The notes under the pieces are model-generated. The model saw nothing but the letters and a program-made list of their open reading frames with translations. It was not told where the DNA came from and did no database searches. The position numbers were made by a program, and so were the translations under genes. Positions 14,915-27,268 of a stretch of DNA of 64,000 nt are shown here, piece by piece (position 1 is the stretch's first letter; the number at the start of each line of letters is the position of its first letter). Source of the stretch: Escherichia coli. Its GTDB lineage: Bacteria > Pseudomonadota > Gammaproteobacteria > Enterobacterales > Enterobacteriaceae. The stretch is from the NCBI RefSeq assembly GCF_029227855.1, contig NZ_CP074356.1; one strand, 5' to 3'.

Positions 14915-15550
14915 TCTTCTGAATCACCGGGCGAAAAAATATAACTGAGTTACAAATAAGTACCAGTCGAATGAGTATTGTATTAAGAATTTTTGAGTAT
15001 CGCTGATACAACCAGAAAGCAATGCTAGCGCAATATTATAGGGCCAGCAATTGAGATTATTAGTAAAAGCATGTTAAGAATTAATTACCGAATTTATATA
15101 TTAATTATAGTAAGGCAATGAGCTATTTTTGATAGTAAAAATAAAACAAGTTGATTTGATATATTAAATGAACAAATTAATCTTGATGGCAGTCTGATTA
15201 TTGGTGAAGTTTATAGTCAGTTTTTTTCGCCAGCGGTTAAAGAAATAGAATAGTCGTATAAAAAAGGGTGTTCTGGGGCGAGTAAAACAACATCTTCACC
15301 TTAATGGCGATACAGTTGGCTGAGAGTCAGCAGGGGGGCAAATCACCTGCAAATAAACACGGCGCATACTGGCGTGAATATCGCGGATGCGTTCGAGGAC
15401 AGAAGAACCGACAGGCGGATTCTTCAGCCGCTCATCGTCCATCACAAAACCTTAGACCAGGTATTCCTGAAGCCGATTGAATATTGAGCAGTAGAAAATA
15501 TCTGGATTGACAGTATTACAAGGGGTTGGAGAACGTCAGGAGAGGCATTT

Positions 15551-15571
15551 TGGCGGAAGATCACAGGAGTC
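15551..15571 (+). repeat. attL: 21-bp direct repeat of the selC 3' end
   Basis: Exact copy of 27174..27194. Confidence 0.8.
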
Positions 15572-15715
15572 AAAATTGACATATAACAATTTGATTTAAA
15601 TCGTTTATATTTTTCTATTCTAATTCATTTATACACATCCTTATACATATAATATCTATCGATTAATTTTTACACGCATCTTCACGCACGTTAACTCAGG
15701 AAAAAAATTTTTTTT

Positions 15716-16012
15716 TCGGAAGAACTGTTCACACTGTTCACCTTTCTGTTTTCTCCTTTTATTTCAGTTGGATAGGTGGTGAATAATGGGTGAAGGGTGA
15801 ACATTCGATTCTTCACCTCCGGCATTCTGCCGGTGTGACTCATACCGGTGATTAATCCCCCGTGCTGAAATCACACCGGAAGAAAAAAGTTTTTTTTGAT
15901 TTGATTGTTCACACTGTTCACCTTTCATTTTTCTCTTTTAATTTCAGTGTGATAACGGGTGAATATACGGTGAAGGGTGAACAGTGGATTGTTCACCTTC
16001 GGGGAATTCAGG
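15716..16012. repeat. crr-like region: two ~110-bp direct repeats with TGTTCACC/GGTGAACA octamer iterons
   Basis: Block gttcacactgttcacctttc...ggtgaagggtgaaca occurs twice (about 15722 and 15903), immediately downstream of the alpha gene; P4 crr has two 120-bp repeats with alpha-binding type I iterons. Confidence 0.7.
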
Positions 16013-19307: not shown

Positions 19308-19872
19308 GCGTCCTGTCTCCCCGGTCTTTCTGCTGGGCGAGAAAATCGCGGCACAGGCCTTTGGCTTTCAGCTCATTCAGCACAAAATCAATATCTTCAT
19401 TCAGGTAACTGAAAATATGCGGAATGTAGAGCTGATGCAGGCCGGAGAGTTCACGGTGAATCAAATCACCCCCAACAAACTGGGATACGGCGCTGGCGCG
19501 GTTGAGCTTATGGTAAGCCTCAATGCTGAGGTGTTCACGGGCGTCATGACGTGCTGAGACGGTCTGAGGGGCTTTTTTATTACGCACGGGACACCTCCAC
19601 CACCGGCAGACGGGCAGCAAGGGAGAGCACATAGTCACGGACAAGGGAACGGCGGGCACTGCGTTCATCACCGGCCACGGTGCGAAGCATACAGATACGG
19701 GGATGACGGTCTGCGCGACGGACAGCCGCAAACACAAAGACAAATTCAGGGTGTGAGGGGGTAAGGGTTGTAGCCATGATGGCAGCCTCCTGTGAATAGC
19801 AAATAACGCTATCGCCGGAGTTCTCACGCTCGATGGCGATAGCCCAGACGGGGGTGAGAATACCGGCTTCAC
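19300..19872 (-). CDS. Hypothetical protein, start uncertain
   Basis: C-terminal ~85 aa look protein-like; the N-terminal part is P/S/L/R-rich and overlaps another frame; putative GTG start. Confidence 0.3.
19580..19777 (-). CDS. Hypothetical small protein (65 aa; C-terminal part of the 214-aa ORF)
   Basis: Internal ATG ([12 protein letters not shown]...) gives a compact ORF ending at the stop at 19580; the upstream part of the 214-aa ORF overlaps vis and is probably not coding. Confidence 0.25.
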
Positions 19873-20175
19873 AGGATACCGGCCAGCCCGGAGGCTGCCC
19901 CGCCTGAGCTACCATTGACTCTGCGGCATAATGAGCGGACGCGGGCAGGATGCACGGAATGCCATCTGCACGACTGACCACACACCACACCATAATCTGG
20001 CGCTCTGTGGCATTGATTGCGACACAAAAAAAGACGCGTGGCGCGTCATATGTCGCCTGTGAATTGCTCGGGTTCTCACGCCCGGCTGCCGATTTTGCGG
20101 CAGCGGAAAAACTATATCCGCAAATGCCGGAAAAAGGCAAGCCAGAAAAAGGGAGTTTTTGCAGAGCGGGCATCA

Positions 20176-22299: not shown

Positions 22300-22872
22300 A
22301 TGGAAAGCACAGCCTTACAGCAGGCCTTTGACACCTGTCAGAATAACAAAGCAGCATGGCTGCAACGCAAAAATGAGCTGGCAGCGGCCGAACAGGAATA
22401 CCTGCGGCTTCTGTCAGGAGAAGGCAGAAACGTCAGTCGCCTGGACGAATTACGCAATATTATCGAAGTCAGAAAATGGCAGGTGAATCAGGCCGCCGGT
22501 CGTTATATTCGTTCGCATGAAGCCGTTCAGCACATCAGCATCCGCGACCGGCTGAATGATTTTATGCAGCAGCACGGCACAGTACTGGCGGCCGCACTGG
22601 CACCGGAGTTGATGGGCTACAGTGAACTGACGGACATTGCCCGAAACTGTGCCATACAGCGTGCCACAGATGCCCTGCGTGAAGCCCTTCTGTCCTGGCT
22701 TGCGAAGGGGGAAAAAATTAATTATTCCGCACAGGATAGCGACATTTTAACGACCATCGGATTCAGGCCTGACGCGGCTTCGGTGGATGACAGCCGTGAA
22801 AAATTCACCCCTGCGCAGAACATGATTTTTTCGCGTAAAAGTGCGCAACTGGCATCACATCAGTCTGTGTAA
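22300..22872 (+). CDS. psu: P4 Psu-like polarity suppression / capsid decoration protein
   Basis: 190-aa ORF following delta; same length and position as P4 Psu. Confidence 0.78.
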   Translation: MESTALQQAFDTCQNNKAAWLQRKNELAAAEQEYLRLLSGEGRNVSRLDELRNIIEVRKWQVNQAAGRYIRSHEAVQHISIRDRLNDFMQQHGTVLAAALAPELMGYSELTDIARNCAIQRATDALREALLSWLAKGEKINYSAQDSDILTTIGFRPDAASVDDSREKFTPAQNMIFSRKSAQLASHQSV

Positions 22873-23036
22873 AACTCCCCGAAAATCCGTCCGATTTTAC
22901 TGAAAAAAGCCATGCATCGATAAGGTGCATGGCTTTGCATGCGTTTCCCTGCCTCATTTTCTGCAAACCGCGCCATTCCCGGCGCGGTCTGAGCGTGTCT
23001 GTGCAACTGCATTAAAACCGCCCTGCAAAGCGGGCG

Positions 23037-23055
23037 GGCGAGGCGGGGAAAGCAC
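23037..23055 (+). other. P2/P4-type cos site
   Basis: Exact 19-mer GGCGAGGCGGGGAAAGCAC, the P2/P4 cohesive-end sequence as I recall it, between psu and the cargo operon. Confidence 0.78.
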
Positions 23056-23076
23056 TGCGCGCACGAGAGTAAAACA

Positions 23077-23739
23077 TTACTCAATTGAAAAATGTAACAT
23101 TCCTCTCTCTCTCGGTGTAATGGTGTTGGGATGAACTAACCGTTCCATTTCAAAACCAAAATCATGATAAGCAGTATTATAAAAAGAGCTTAAAATAAAT
23201 TTCACAAACGTTACCGGACATAATGGTGACGACAATGGTATCCGGCAATTTTTAAACTGACCTAGGGTTAGGTGTGCTGCTGGATGAATAACATCATTAG
23301 CGTCATCAGGGGCATAATCCACTCGTATCGGAACGGGTAAAATTGATTTTTGGACAATGTCAGCATAAAAGTTGCTTTCGTCTAAATATAACTCAGGGTC
23401 ATTCTGGAATGATTCGTAATTAGGCGCGGGGAAATAACATAGTCTTTCTTTTACAAGTTTCATTCGACGATCAAACTGAAATAAAAGATGGAGTAACCCA
23501 CCATCTAATAATTTGATATTATATTGCCTTTTTTCGTCCAAGAAGTTATAGATATCAACATACTCAATATTTCTTAATGCAATTGAAGTATCAGCGAATC
23601 CGCTATAGCTGACATAATAATATTCTTTATCCCGTGTTATTACAGGATAGTTTTGTGCGTCACTGATACCCACTGATATCAGATGAGATGTGATTTTTCT
23701 AATTGCTGCGCAAATGCTACTTGAGTTCATCTCATTCAC
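23077..23739 (-). CDS. Hypothetical protein, second gene of the satellite cargo operon (candidate defense partner/effector)
   Basis: 220-aa ORF; start overlaps or lies 1 nt after the stop of the upstream helicase-like gene; AT-rich; no recognisable catalytic motif or TM segment. Confidence 0.7.
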   Translation of the reverse strand: MNEMNSSSICAAIRKITSHLISVGISDAQNYPVITRDKEYYYVSYSGFADTSIALRNIEYVDIYNFLDEKRQYNIKLLDGGLLHLLFQFDRRMKLVKERLCYFPAPNYESFQNDPELYLDESNFYADIVQKSILPVPIRVDYAPDDANDVIHPAAHLTLGQFKNCRIPLSSPLCPVTFVKFILSSFYNTAYHDFGFEMERLVHPNTITPRERGMLHFSIE

Positions 23740-25828
23740 CCTTCAGTTGCTTAATTAAAGCAAGGCGTAATTCTTCTGGTATATCTTCAACTCTAACTTG
23801 TCCATCCAATAGAACCATGAGATTATGGGCGTTCAATTTAGCTTGGTGTACTCTTTTTCTCTCTTGAGAAGTCATATCCCTGTTCACCAGTCGCATTTTT
23901 TTACGCTCTGCTTCTGTTGGGTATGTAAATTCCAGTTTAAATCCTCTTTGTTTCACCTCATTGTATTCGTTAATCAGGCCATCAAAGGAAGAACCCACAC
24001 CACATACACGAAGCCATGCTTTAGTTCTTGTCATTGCAGTAAAAAGGATATTTCTACGCTTTGCCAGTTCATAATCCACGTTGCAATAATGAGCATCCAT
24101 GATGTATACCATAGCTGCTTCGTTTCCCTTTGCTCTGAATATGGATGTAAATGTTACACTATTGTCTGAGAAAAACTCATCAGGAGAGCTTGTAATTCCA
24201 GCTATAGATGTATTAATTCCGTTTTGGAATAAAAGGTCACGCAGATAACCTACTTCATTTCTCATACGTATTGTATCTGGGTGAATTACAACAATGTCGC
24301 TAGGTAATATCTCTTCCTCATGAATATTTTTAAATATTTCCTGCGCAATCCAATTAGATTGAGAATGCTTGTCTTCAAATTTAACAAACTGGATCATCTC
24401 ATCAATTGAGTTATGTGCACTCAATAGGGATGGGCTAGATTTCGTTGTCCTTGATAATATAACCTCCTTTCCCTCAACTAATTCACCATCTATTTTTTCA
24501 TAACCAATCTCTGTCCATAATCCTTCAAAATCAAACATCTGAATTATTGGTTTATGATAAATACCAAACCCTAAAGCATGAGCCGTGGTTAAGATTGGGC
24601 CTGGATTTCGATAACAAATGTCTAAAGTTATATCTTGTTCTTCACTGGTGAAACTAACAATTGGTTTTCCATGCTCGTCTACTCCCCAAATTTGTTCAGG
24701 AGAAGGCATGGATGAATCCCCAAGATTTTGTAATTCATCATAAGCGTAAACTAATCGTTTCTTTTCCCCTAGCAAAGAATAACATATGCGGAGAAACTCA
24801 ATTGAAAAATCTTGAGCCTCATCAATAAGGATGAAATCATATAATTTCTTATCTTCTTTTTTATTATCGAGGAAGTTCTTACAGGCAGCCTGAAAAGGTG
24901 TTTCATTAAATTCTGCAAGACGACGTGCGCCGTTATAATCGTAATAAGGTATATTATGTGCCACACATGCGTTGTAATATAAACCTTCTGTTTTAGAGCC
25001 GCCCCAGGCATGAATAATGTCTACGTTATCCCAATCAATTCCATTATCATCTGCGAATGCTGAGACTAAATGTTTTAGTTGCTCTTTGAGAGAGCGACTA
25101 TTGAAAGTAACTGCTATTTTCCAGTGAGGATTTTGTGAGTGTATATGTGCAATTTTTCGAGCGAGAACAATAGTCTTACCTGAGCCAGCAAGCCCACGAA
25201 TCCTTTGGACATTATCAATATTGACCAAGACGGCAGTCGTTTGACTAGAATCAAGAGTGGCAAGTGAATTCTCCAATTTTTTTAGTACGCTACCCTTTGA
25301 GTCAATCTGTCTGACATAGCTTCTTTTTCTCTTGGGCTTCAATTTTGAAAGTGATTGAACATGGGATAGTAAAGTTTCAAGAAGGGAACCATCATCCCAG
25401 GTAATGTCATTGAGAATAGATAATATTTCATCAACATTGGAACTAATGCTTAAACCACTGTCACAATCAAAATCATCAATATTTATACAGTTTGGTGCGA
25501 AAACAATACTGTTCACAGGTACGTTTAATATTCTGTTTTTAGTCAGTGCTTTTACTTCAGAAAGTTTTGCGACGAATTTCATGTGCATTTCGTCAATGAT
25601 ATCAATATCATCTTGGGTTAACTCTCTTTCCTCATTGAAATGGAAAATGACAACACCATGCTTTGATGAGCAAATTAGACCATCAAGAGTAACATTGTTT
25701 TCGCTTAGAAAAATAACAGGAAAACCGCGATAATAATATCCAGTTATATCATTTATCTTTCTTATTGAATTTTCTAGAATATCAGAAACAGTATGATTCT
25801 GAGGTTTCATTCCCAATATTTCAATCAT
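23732..25828 (-). CDS. SF1 (UvrD-like) helicase-family ATPase with ~200-aa N-terminal domain of unknown function; candidate defense protein
   Basis: 698 aa; Walker A GLAGSGKT (res ~212-219), motif II LIDEAQDF (res ~334-341), C-terminal FRAKGNEAAMVYI and FTAMTRTKAWL resembling UvrD-like helicase C-terminal motifs; GGAG Shine-Dalgarno 8 nt before the ATG; start overlaps the int stop. Confidence 0.85.
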   Translation of the reverse strand: MIEILGMKPQNHTVSDILENSIRKINDITGYYYRGFPVIFLSENNVTLDGLICSSKHGVVIFHFNEERELTQDDIDIIDEMHMKFVAKLSEVKALTKNRILNVPVNSIVFAPNCINIDDFDCDSGLSISSNVDEILSILNDITWDDGSLLETLLSHVQSLSKLKPKRKRSYVRQIDSKGSVLKKLENSLATLDSSQTTAVLVNIDNVQRIRGLAGSGKTIVLARKIAHIHSQNPHWKIAVTFNSRSLKEQLKHLVSAFADDNGIDWDNVDIIHAWGGSKTEGLYYNACVAHNIPYYDYNGARRLAEFNETPFQAACKNFLDNKKEDKKLYDFILIDEAQDFSIEFLRICYSLLGEKKRLVYAYDELQNLGDSSMPSPEQIWGVDEHGKPIVSFTSEEQDITLDICYRNPGPILTTAHALGFGIYHKPIIQMFDFEGLWTEIGYEKIDGELVEGKEVILSRTTKSSPSLLSAHNSIDEMIQFVKFEDKHSQSNWIAQEIFKNIHEEEILPSDIVVIHPDTIRMRNEVGYLRDLLFQNGINTSIAGITSSPDEFFSDNSVTFTSIFRAKGNEAAMVYIMDAHYCNVDYELAKRRNILFTAMTRTKAWLRVCGVGSSFDGLINEYNEVKQRGFKLEFTYPTEAERKKMRLVNRDMTSQERKRVHQAKLNAHNLMVLLDGQVRVEDIPEELRLALIKQLKGE

Positions 25829-27011
25829 TTTGAACTCCGGTAGATAAATTCATCAAAAAATCCGAGTATTTTTGCATCATATATTTTCTTTTATCAAGAT
25901 ACAAAGCATGATTATATGTGCCTCGGATAGTATTCTTATCAACATGTGCGAGCTGAATCTCAATCCATGCGCTCTCAAATCCCATTTCATGAAGAATTGT
26001 CGATAGTGTATGCCTAAAACCATGACCAGTAGTTCTTCCCTTATAACCTAATGATTCAATAACTTGGTTTACACTTTCTTTGCTTATCGGTTTTCTACGA
26101 TCATTTCTGCCAATAAAAACATAGGGATAGTCCGATGTTATCGGTTGTAGTTGTTTAAACAGTTCAATTACCTGAGATGATAAAGGTACTATATGTGGCC
26201 GACGCATTTTCATCCGTTCAGCAGGTATTTCCCAGATACCTTTTATCAAATCAATTTCACTCCAAGTTGCAAAACGCATTTCCTGCGTCCTGACTCCTGT
26301 CATCATTAGGATCTTGGTTGCGTTTTTGGTAATAATACTTCCAGTATATGACTCTAGATCTCTAACAAAATGAGGTAGCTCTTCCGCGGATAAAAACGGA
26401 TGATGCCTTTGCTTGGGAATAGCCAAAGCGATTGCTAAATCAGGCGCCGGATTGTATTCAGCACGGCCAGTGATGATCGCGTAGCGAAACACTTCTCCAC
26501 ATCGTTGGCGAACTTTTCTGGTTTTCTCCAACGCTCCACGTTTTTCGATGCGCTTAAGTACTTCAAGCAGTTCTAATGGCTTAATTTCAGATATTGGGCG
26601 TTTACCAATGAAAGGAAAAACGTCCTGTTCGAATGTTTTAATAATTTCCTCCCGATAAGCGATAGTCCAGCGATCTGCTTTTGCTGCATGCCATTCTCTG
26701 CTAACTGACTCAAAAGAATTTTCAGTTGATAATTTTTGAGCAAGTTTCTGAGCCTTCCGTTCTTCTACTGGGTCTATGCCGTTTGCTACCTGCTTACGTG
26801 CAGTATCACGTTTCTCTCGTGCTTCTGCGAGGCTAACAAGTTCGTAACTACCAAATGACATTAGCCGTGCTTTACCGGCGAAACGAAAGCGGAAGCGCCA
26901 GCCCTTTGAACCGTCTGGCTTGATGAGTAGTGACAAACCGTGCCCATCATTCATTGTATATGGTTTGTCTTGTGGTTTTGCGCGTTTGATTTGTATATCG
27001 GTTAGAGCCAT
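25821..27011 (-). CDS. int: P4-type tyrosine integrase
   Basis: 396 aa; catalytic HGFRHT...(R)...Y motifs in the C-terminus; N-terminal P4-integrase-like region; lies next to selC. Confidence 0.93.
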   Translation of the reverse strand: MALTDIQIKRAKPQDKPYTMNDGHGLSLLIKPDGSKGWRFRFRFAGKARLMSFGSYELVSLAEAREKRDTARKQVANGIDPVEERKAQKLAQKLSTENSFESVSREWHAAKADRWTIAYREEIIKTFEQDVFPFIGKRPISEIKPLELLEVLKRIEKRGALEKTRKVRQRCGEVFRYAIITGRAEYNPAPDLAIALAIPKQRHHPFLSAEELPHFVRDLESYTGSIITKNATKILMMTGVRTQEMRFATWSEIDLIKGIWEIPAERMKMRRPHIVPLSSQVIELFKQLQPITSDYPYVFIGRNDRRKPISKESVNQVIESLGYKGRTTGHGFRHTLSTILHEMGFESAWIEIQLAHVDKNTIRGTYNHALYLDKRKYMMQKYSDFLMNLSTGVQND

Positions 27012-27173
27012 GTGTATAACTGAAAACTGCGTATGAAGATTCTATACACATTACTATACATATTTTTCGCGGATTCAGGGAGATGATCTCGGACTATTAC
27101 GGACAAGATGATTATTTATGATATTGAATATAAAGGATTTTATGGAGTATCTCGGAACTGGCTGGATGAAGTT

Positions 27174-27268
27174 TGGCGGAAGATCACAGGAGTCGAACCT
27201 GCCCGGGACCGCTGGCGGCCCCAACTGGATTTGAAGTCCAGCCGCCTCACCGGAGACGACGATCTTCC
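27174..27268 (-). tRNA. selC: tRNA-Sec (selenocysteine tRNA, UCA anticodon)
   Basis: 95-nt match to the selC sequence as I recall it, on the minus strand, including long variable arm and CCA end. Confidence 0.93.

What the first reader, a model, noticed from the sequence alone, without database searches (positions are those of the whole stretch)
23077..25828. Candidate anti-phage defense operon (SF1 helicase-like ATPase plus 220-aa unknown protein) in the P4-satellite cargo hotspot
Seen in sequence: two co-directional minus-strand genes fill the entire space between cos/psu and int; the 698-aa protein has Walker A GLAGSGKT, motif II LIDEAQDF and UvrD-like C-terminal motifs behind an ~200-aa N-terminal domain with no recognisable motif; the 220-aa partner is tightly coupled to it and has no recognisable motif; both are markedly AT-rich compared with the alpha/sid/delta/psu module. 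Established knowledge: the psu-int interval of P4-like satellites, occupied by gop-beta-cII in P4, is a hypervariable hotspot carrying diverse defense systems. Inference: this is a two-component helicase-based defense system. It might correspond to a helicase plus DUF2290-type pair that I recall being reported from satellite hotspots, but I cannot confirm that family assignment from sequence alone.
Basis: partly seen in the sequence, partly recalled or inferred. Interest (0 to 1): 0.9.

Follow-up and report, generated by a model that had tools for sequence, protein, structure and literature searches.

The report
Known Helicase+DUF2290 anti-phage system
The two genes are a copy of the already catalogued "Helicase + DUF2290" anti-phage defence pair, in its usual place in a P4-like phage satellite of E. 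coli; the find is ordinary, although nobody yet knows how this system works.

Summary
Two tightly coupled minus-strand genes fill the gap between the P4 cos site (23037-23055) and the integrase gene. They encode a 698-aa SF1 helicase (23732-25828) and a DUF2290 protein (23077-23730/23739). The host is an 11.6-kb P4-like satellite inserted at tRNA-Sec.

The proteins match PADLOC's paired 'Helicase' (E 2e-265, full length) and 'DUF2290' (E 2e-77) models, and Pfam PF10053 (E 8e-48). The RefSeq accession of this exact helicase, WP_001697485, is listed 21 times in the P4-hotspot table of Rousset et al. 2022. That paper showed that a Klebsiella homologue (44 %/40 % identical here) specifically blocks phage T7.

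The identical locus occurs in 25 of 5,426 complete E. coli genomes. The psu-int interval holds other cargo, such as PARIS, in near-identical satellites.

The mechanism is unpublished. My models show a complete UvrD/Rep-like motor behind a family-specific N-terminal domain with no detectable nuclease motif. The DUF2290 model has no convincing solved structural relative and about 20 invariant polar residues. I infer a helicase sensor/motor plus DUF2290 effector, with low confidence.

Novelty: already known. Interest: low.

The parts
23732..25828 (-). Helicase component: a 698-aa SF1 UvrD/Rep-like ATPase. It has a family-specific N-terminal domain (aa 1-190), a motor core (aa ~195-640) and a conserved helical C-terminal tail.
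23077..23739 (-). DUF2290 component. The mechanical ORF is 220 aa from a GTG; the probable true start is the ATG at 23730 (217 aa).
   Evidence: ORF. PADLOC PDLC02999 'DUF2290', E 2e-77. Pfam PF10053, E 7.7e-48. RefSeq aa (WP_001697486.1). Junction sequence. 22 invariant residues, including R139, D141, H152, P153, H156, Q161, C165, R166 and E211.
25821..27011 (-). Tyrosine integrase of the satellite. Its stop codon overlaps the helicase start. The gene is low in GC and is co-inherited with the cargo.
   Evidence: ORF. PHROG integrase. An int allele at >=99 % identity occurs in only 26 genomes, and the next closest is 83.5 %. GC 0.41.
23037..23055 (+). P2/P4 cos cohesive-end sequence. It marks the psu-side edge of the hotspot.
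   Evidence: Exact 19-nt match, with 0 matches expected by chance.
22300..22872 (+). psu (polarity suppression protein). It is the conserved gene flanking the hotspot.
   Evidence: PHROG 6366, E 1e-99. RefSeq annotation.
15549..15571 (+). attL core: a 23-nt direct repeat of the 3' end of tRNA-Sec.
   Evidence: the repeat finder family D2. Exact 23-mer TTTGGCGGAAGATCACAGGAGTC at 15549 and 27172; the element is 11,646 bp.
27172..27268 (-). tRNA-Sec (selC) with the attR core at its 3' end. This is the integration site.
   Evidence: ARAGORN. Rfam RF01852, 83.8 bits. Repeat.

Best explanation
This is the two-gene 'Helicase + DUF2290' anti-phage system, called Rst_HelicaseDUF2290 or Helicase-DUF2290 in the defence-annotation literature. 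It is carried as cargo in the psu/cos-int hotspot of an 11.6-kb P4-like satellite integrated at selC.

**Shown here**
- Family membership of both proteins.
- The conserved helicase-then-DUF2290 gene order in unrelated hosts and replicons.
- The hotspot context.
- An intact SF1 (UvrD/Rep-like) motor.

**Taken from the literature**
- A 40-44 % identical Klebsiella homologue from the same hotspot specifically blocks phage T7 in E. coli.

**Inferred (low confidence, about 0.3)**
- The helicase is an ATP-driven sensor and motor. With its family-specific N-terminal alpha/beta domain, it engages a phage nucleic-acid structure, such as the free ends or ssDNA of linear, rapidly replicating T7-type DNA.
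- DUF2290 is the partner that executes or licenses the response. Its cluster of invariant polar residues (R139-x-D141, H152-P-x-x-H156, Q161, C165-R166, E211) looks like a catalytic or ligand pocket.
- This would be analogous to the sensor-helicase plus effector logic of Hachiman or Gabija.

The genes are probably expressed in the lysogenic state, either together with int or from a promoter in the 3' end of int. They would protect the host, and so the satellite, from lytic phages.
For: **Family membership**
- PADLOC full-length hits for both proteins and Pfam DUF2290.
- Identity to the experimentally tested pFR91 system is 44 % (helicase, first 398 aa) and 40 % (DUF2290), with collinear alignments.
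- The exact helicase accession appears in Rousset's P4-hotspot table.
- T7-specific protection is reported in PMC9122126.

**Conserved gene pair**
- The pair and its order are conserved in Gloeothece, Vibrio, an IncI E. coli plasmid and an Acinetobacter plasmid.

**Hotspot context**
- The delta-psu-cos backbone is present in 914 of 5,426 genomes, but this cargo in only 25.
- Near-identical backbones carry PARIS or other cargo at the same position.

**Motor and partner**
- DUF2290 has 22 invariant residues, mostly polar or charged, concentrated in strands 138-169.
- A preprint independently suggests a Hachiman-like nuclease-helicase logic.
Against: - This E. coli allele has never been tested. 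It is only 40-44 % identical to the tested system.
- A lactococcal homologue gave no protection against the phages tried (PMC11381338).
- The N-terminal domain lacks a canonical (D/E)xK motif. It gives no NERD hit in 59 family members.
- No interaction between the two proteins was tested. The sensor/effector roles rest on analogy only.
Confidence: 0.93

Rival explanations
1. DUF2290 is not an enzyme. It is an adaptor or specificity subunit that regulates the helicase. The helicase alone would do the damage, for example by stripping proteins or unwinding phage replication or transcription intermediates, as the RNA-polymerase-associated SF1 protein HelD does.
Against: The invariant residues of DUF2290 (D, H, H, R, C, E, Q) are typical of an active or metal-binding site rather than a simple interface. 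The structural match to HelD is shared with all SF1A helicases.
Confidence: 0.25
2. The helicase N-terminal domain is a diverged NERD / PD-(D/E)xK nuclease. The helicase would then be a nuclease-helicase fusion (Nhi-like) that degrades phage DNA, with DUF2290 as an accessory.
For: The predicted secondary structure of residues 13-110 is alpha-beta-beta-beta-alpha-beta, the order of the PD-(D/E)xK core. D49 is conserved at the start of beta2. In the wider family, acidic residues occupy positions 63 (D in 28 of 47), 66 and 79. Rousset's HHpred tables annotate NERD in the Bacillus and P2-hotspot homologues. The PADLOC 'NERD+UvrD' model aligns collinearly from residue 191.
Against: There is no (D/E)xK lysine, and position 63 is H in this clade. 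Pfam NERD was not detected in any of 12 + 47 family members, even at E <= 0.1. There is no PDB sequence match. The N-terminal fold could not be searched on its own.
Confidence: 0.2
3. The pair serves the satellite's own life cycle, such as replication, helper exploitation or competition with P2-like helpers, rather than host defence against unrelated phages.
For: The pair sits in a satellite and is translationally joined to int. P4's native cargo gop-beta-cII is likewise satellite-borne (established knowledge).
Against: The same pair occurs without any P4 context in cyanobacterial and Vibrio chromosomes and on plasmids. Only 25 of 914 E. coli genomes that carry the P4-like delta-psu-cos backbone have it. 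The homologue blocked T7, a phage unrelated to P2.
Confidence: 0.05
4. It is a housekeeping or repair helicase with an accessory protein, or a decayed, non-functional remnant.
For: RefSeq names it only 'DEAD/DEAH box helicase'.
Against: The distribution is sporadic (25 of 5,426 genomes). The locus sits in a mobile element, and its GC content is 0.36 against 0.50 for the window. Both ORFs are intact, and the locus is >=99.8 % identical across all 25 genomes. All catalytic motifs are intact. The score against the nearest NCBIfam equivalog is far below its cutoff (134 vs 550 bits).
Confidence: 0.02

Closest known systems
Helicase + DUF2290 system of Rousset et al. 2022 (pFR91, Klebsiella pneumoniae SB5961; DefenseFinder Rst_HelicaseDUF2290, PADLOC Helicase-DUF2290)
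   Same: Same two families, same gene order and same position (cos/psu-int hotspot of a P4-like satellite), with collinear full-length alignments. The exact E. coli helicase accession, WP_001697485, is listed in that paper's hotspot table.
   Different: It is only 44 % (helicase) and 40 % (DUF2290) identical to the allele that was tested. The phage range of this allele is untested.
Hachiman (HamA nuclease + HamB helicase)
   Same: A two-gene cassette of a helicase plus a small partner. It is the proposed sensor-helicase/effector logic that I borrow by analogy.
   Different: HamB is an SF2 helicase and HamA is a Cap4-like PD-(D/E)xK nuclease. Here the helicase is SF1 UvrD/Rep-like, and DUF2290 shows no recognisable nuclease fold. 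There is no sequence relationship.
Gabija (GajA OLD nuclease + GajB UvrD-like helicase)
   Different: The partner is DUF2290, not an OLD/TOPRIM ATPase-nuclease. The GajB matches are confined to short stretches around individual motor motifs. The gene order and the N-terminal domain differ.
NERD-UvrD fusion helicases / Nhi-type nuclease-helicases
   Same: The architecture is an N-terminal domain of about 190 aa followed by an SF1 core. The PADLOC 'NERD+UvrD' model aligns from residue 191 (E 3.7e-16).
   Different: No NERD or (D/E)xK signature is detectable in the N-terminal domain. Those systems are single-gene, whereas this one requires a DUF2290 neighbour.

Membership tests
Helicase + DUF2290 defence system (Rousset 2022; PADLOC / DefenseFinder) | A protein matching the system's helicase profile over its full length | tested here: met
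   PADLOC PDLC03002, E 2e-265, residues 1-696 against profile positions 1-705 of 707. 44 % identity to the tested pFR91 helicase over the 398 aa available.
Helicase + DUF2290 defence system (Rousset 2022; PADLOC / DefenseFinder) | A DUF2290 (PF10053) protein | tested here: met
   Pfam PF10053, E 7.7e-48. PADLOC PDLC02999, E 2e-77. 40 % identity to the pFR91 DUF2290 protein.
Helicase + DUF2290 defence system (Rousset 2022; PADLOC / DefenseFinder) | The two genes are adjacent and co-directional | tested here: met
   The helicase stop and the DUF2290 start are 1 nt apart, or overlap by 8 nt. The same order is seen in loci L002-L005, L009 and L010.
Helicase + DUF2290 defence system (Rousset 2022; PADLOC / DefenseFinder) | Confers resistance to phage (T7 for the tested allele), with both genes required | not testable with these tools
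   The phenotype is known only for the Klebsiella allele (PMC9122126). A lactococcal homologue was inactive against lactococcal phages.
P4-like satellite psu-int hotspot cargo | Located between psu/cos and int of an element carrying alpha, sid, delta, psu, CI RNA and cos, and flanked by att repeats | tested here: met
   PHROGs, Rfam C4 RNA, cos, att repeats and tRNA-Sec. The cargo varies between near-identical backbones.
SF1 UvrD/Rep-like helicases | Walker A, DExx motif II, motifs III-VI, and the RecA-like 1A/2A fold | tested here: met
   [not shown]
NERD / PD-(D/E)xK nuclease (for helicase residues 1-190) | Match to the NERD profile and a D...(D/E)xK catalytic signature | tested here: not met
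   No NERD hit in 12 + 47 family members. No conserved lysine, and position 63 is H in this clade. The order of secondary-structure elements is compatible with the fold, but the fold was not searched separately.
Gabija GajB | Full-length match to the GajB profile and an adjacent GajA (OLD/TOPRIM ATPase) | tested here: not met
   There are only partial GajB hits of 45-70 residues, E >= 5e-08. The neighbour is DUF2290, not GajA.

The most novel reading that the evidence does not exclude
DUF2290 is an effector enzyme with a fold not represented among characterised proteins. Its active site would be built from the invariant R-x-D...H-P-x-x-H...Q...C-R...E residues, and it would be switched on by its SF1 helicase partner when the partner meets phage DNA. 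In addition, this diverged E. coli allele (40-44 % identical to the only tested one) would have a phage range different from the T7-only phenotype.
Probability: 0.3. Interest if true: 0.5.

Novelty: already known. Interest (0 to 1): 0.2.

Why it matters
As a finding it adds little. The system is named, detected by the standard tools, and this exact allele is already listed in the discovery paper.

What remains open is the mechanism. No structure or biochemistry exists for either protein in the literature and structure collections searched. DUF2290 has no recognisable relatives outside its own family, and only one allele has ever shown a phenotype, restricted to T7. The conserved-residue map and domain analysis here give concrete mutagenesis targets:
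- K218 and D336/E337 in the motor;
- D49 and D79 in the N-terminal domain;
- D141, H152, H156, C165, R166 and E211 in DUF2290.

Tried and rejected
- **NERD in the N-terminal domain.** A Pfam scan of 12 N-terminal domains and of 47 diverse full-length family members found no NERD hit, even at E <= 0.1. A profile search of the PDB found nothing. PADLOC hit only the cognate model.
- **Wider search with the N-terminal profile.** A scan of 1.84 billion representative proteins found 698 clusters. All full-length ones listed have the same ~700-aa architecture, so no informative foreign context emerged.
- **DUF2290 fold.**
  - Foldseek against AFDB50 returned only DUF2290 proteins.
  - A PDB profile search returned nothing.
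- **Divergent P2-hotspot 'DUF2290'.** Comparison with the protein from Rousset's table gave only a 22-column match (probability 1.2 %) around IRxD...HPxxH. This is suggestive at most.
- **NCBIfam 'STM2767 family helicase'.** The match is far below cutoff (134 vs 550 bits), and the literature on STM2767 was uninformative.
- **Phage genomes.** DUF2290 is absent from 50,697 phage records, so it is not a typical phage-genome gene.
- **Not possible.** I could not cluster the conserved residues in 3D, because model coordinates are not exposed.
Full report
**1. Observation**

One is 698 aa (23732..25828). The other is 220 aa from a GTG (23077..23739).
- The pair is AT-rich. Its GC content is 0.36. 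The integrase gene is 0.41, the P4 core from alpha to psu is 0.56, and the whole window is 0.50.
- The pair fills the interval. The exact 19-nt P2/P4 cos sequence lies at 23037-23055, 22 nt beyond the DUF2290 stop codon. The helicase ATG overlaps the integrase stop codon (ATGATTGA, preceded by GGAG).

One correction concerns the small gene's start. It most likely begins at the ATG at 23730, giving 217 aa, preceded by AAGGG and arranged as TGAgATG. RefSeq and the closest homologues use this start. The coupling to the helicase gene is equally tight either way.

**2. Context**

The element is a P4-like satellite.
- PHROGs identify the alpha primase, sid, delta, psu and the integrase.
- Rfam finds the P4 immunity RNA (C4 antisense RNA, 19832-19919), isrK and the C4 target sites.
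- A 23-nt direct repeat, TTTGGCGGAAGATCACAGGAGTC, lies at 15549 and at 27172. The right-hand copy lies at the 3' end of tRNA-Sec (27174/27178..27268, minus strand).
- These repeats bound an element of 11,646 bp, inserted between setC and yicJ.

**3. Identity of the two genes**

Both proteins hit the paired PADLOC models end to end.
- The large protein matches 'Helicase' PDLC03002 (E 2e-265, residues 1-696).
- The small protein matches 'DUF2290' PDLC02999 (E 2e-77).
- Pfam gives DUF2290 (PF10053) at E 7.7e-48.

Rousset et al. [quoted passage not shown]
- The cloned system, pFR91, came from Klebsiella pneumoniae SB5961. Its sequences are in the paper's supplement.
- The window's proteins are 44 % identical to it (helicase, over the 398 residues printed) and 40 % identical (DUF2290). 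Both alignments are collinear.

The window's locus is 100 % identical to E. coli CFS3292. There the helicase is RefSeq WP_001697485.1. That accession occurs 21 times in Rousset's table of P4-hotspot contents, as 'UvrD_C_2/AAA_19 + hypothetical + DUF2290'. This exact allele is therefore already catalogued.

The system is a standard category in published PADLOC- and DefenseFinder-based surveys.

**4. Distribution**

- The 2.75-kb locus occurs at >=99.8 % identity in 25 of 5,426 complete E. coli genomes, always on the chromosome. Three more genomes hold distant relatives.
- The adjacent delta-psu-cos backbone is present, at >=80 % coverage, in 914 genomes.
- In three backbones that are 97.9-98.4 % identical, the same interval holds different cargo:
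  - an AAA ATPase plus a DUF4435 protein (PARIS);
  - two hypothetical proteins;
  - a different DEAD/DEAH helicase plus a 141-aa protein, also at selC.
- This directly confirms the hotspot.
- The integrase allele is >=99 % identical in only 26 genomes, and the next closest allele is 83.5 %. The low-GC int gene and the cargo therefore appear to travel as one block.
- Outside P4, the same helicase-then-DUF2290 order is found in several places:
  - Gloeothece and Vibrio chromosomes;
  - an IncI conjugative E. coli plasmid;
  - an 11-kb Acinetobacter plasmid.
- The module is therefore self-contained and mobile.
- DUF2290 was not found in 50,697 phage records.

**5. Anatomy and likely mechanism**

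No mechanistic paper turned up in the full-text searches. One review notes that the roles of the domains are unexplored. One preprint only hypothesises a Hachiman-like logic.

*Helicase.*
- The AlphaFold2 model has mean pLDDT 82.7.
- All motor motifs are invariant across 53 homologues: Walker A, DEAQD, YAYDELQ, CYR, RAKGNEA and LFTAMTR. An active ATP-driven translocase is therefore very likely.

*N-terminal domain (residues 1-190).*
- Its predicted secondary-structure order, alpha-beta-beta-beta-alpha-beta, recalls the PD-(D/E)xK core. D49 sits at the start of the second strand.
- No (D/E)xK motif exists. Position 63 is D in 28 of 47 distant relatives but H in this clade.
- Pfam NERD is not detected in any of 59 family members.
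- There are no PDB or foreign PADLOC matches.
- A scan of 1.84 billion representative proteins found the domain in 698 clusters. All the full-length proteins among the listed hits were ~700-aa helicases.
- I therefore treat it as a family-specific, possibly nuclease-derived domain of unproven activity.

*DUF2290.*
- The model has mean pLDDT 81.5 and pTM 0.80. It is an alpha+beta protein with an antiparallel sheet.
- The top 50 Foldseek AFDB50 matches (the ones listed) are all DUF2290 proteins, from many phyla.
- A PDB profile search is empty.
- Fifty homologues down to 38 % identity keep 22 invariant residues. They are rich in polar and charged residues: Y60, D79, R139, D141, H152, H156, Q161, C165, R166 and E211.
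- Most of these lie in the 138-169 beta-meander. That pattern suggests a catalytic or ligand-binding pocket, but no activity can be assigned.

*Best guess (inference, about 0.3).* The helicase is a sensor and motor that engages phage DNA ends or ssDNA and activates or delivers DUF2290. Two rivals remain open. In one, DUF2290 is a non-catalytic adaptor for a HelD-like remodelling helicase. In the other, the N-terminal domain is a cryptic nuclease.

**6. Verdict**

The feature is an already known, named defence system in its canonical location.
- Function for this particular allele is inferred from a 40-44 % identical homologue.
- A lactococcal homologue gave no protection against the phages tried.
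- Interest is low (0.2). The only open value is the unsolved mechanism and the uncharacterised DUF2290 fold.

Noticed in passing
window 15703-16002: Two 120-nt direct repeats (79 % identical) with 180-nt start-to-start spacing lie just inside attL, beyond the 3' end of the alpha gene. From memory, this geometry matches the P4 crr (cis replication region: two 120-bp repeats separated by 60 bp).
   Followed up: no
window 25821-27011 (int) together with 23077-25828: The integrase allele is >=99 % identical in only 26 E. coli genomes, essentially the same set as the 25 that carry the cargo. The next closest allele is 83.5 %. The int gene is also low in GC (0.41). It therefore looks as if int and the cargo were exchanged as one block, and not the cargo alone.
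   Followed up: partly
[not shown]
   Followed up: partly
L007:6937-8495 (E. coli MLI023K1, P4-like element at ssrA): The hotspot cargo is two hypothetical proteins (299 and 219 aa) with no PADLOC match at E <= 1e-5. This is a candidate uncharacterised hotspot cargo.
   Followed up: partly
window about 15310-15471: RefSeq annotates a rhuM pseudogene fragment just outside attL in the identical genome CFS3292. It may be a remnant of an earlier selC-associated island.
   Followed up: no
window 22925-23134 (+): A 69-aa ORF spans the cos site and overlaps the 3' end of the DUF2290 gene. Some RefSeq genomes annotate it as a 'hypothetical protein', and it may be the 'hypothetical' middle entry in Rousset's table. 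It is probably spurious.
   Followed up: no
window 19832-20117 (-): Rfam finds the P4 immunity RNA (C4 antisense RNA), isrK and the a1/b1 target sites, all at gathering score. This confirms that the P4 immunity region is intact.
   Followed up: yes
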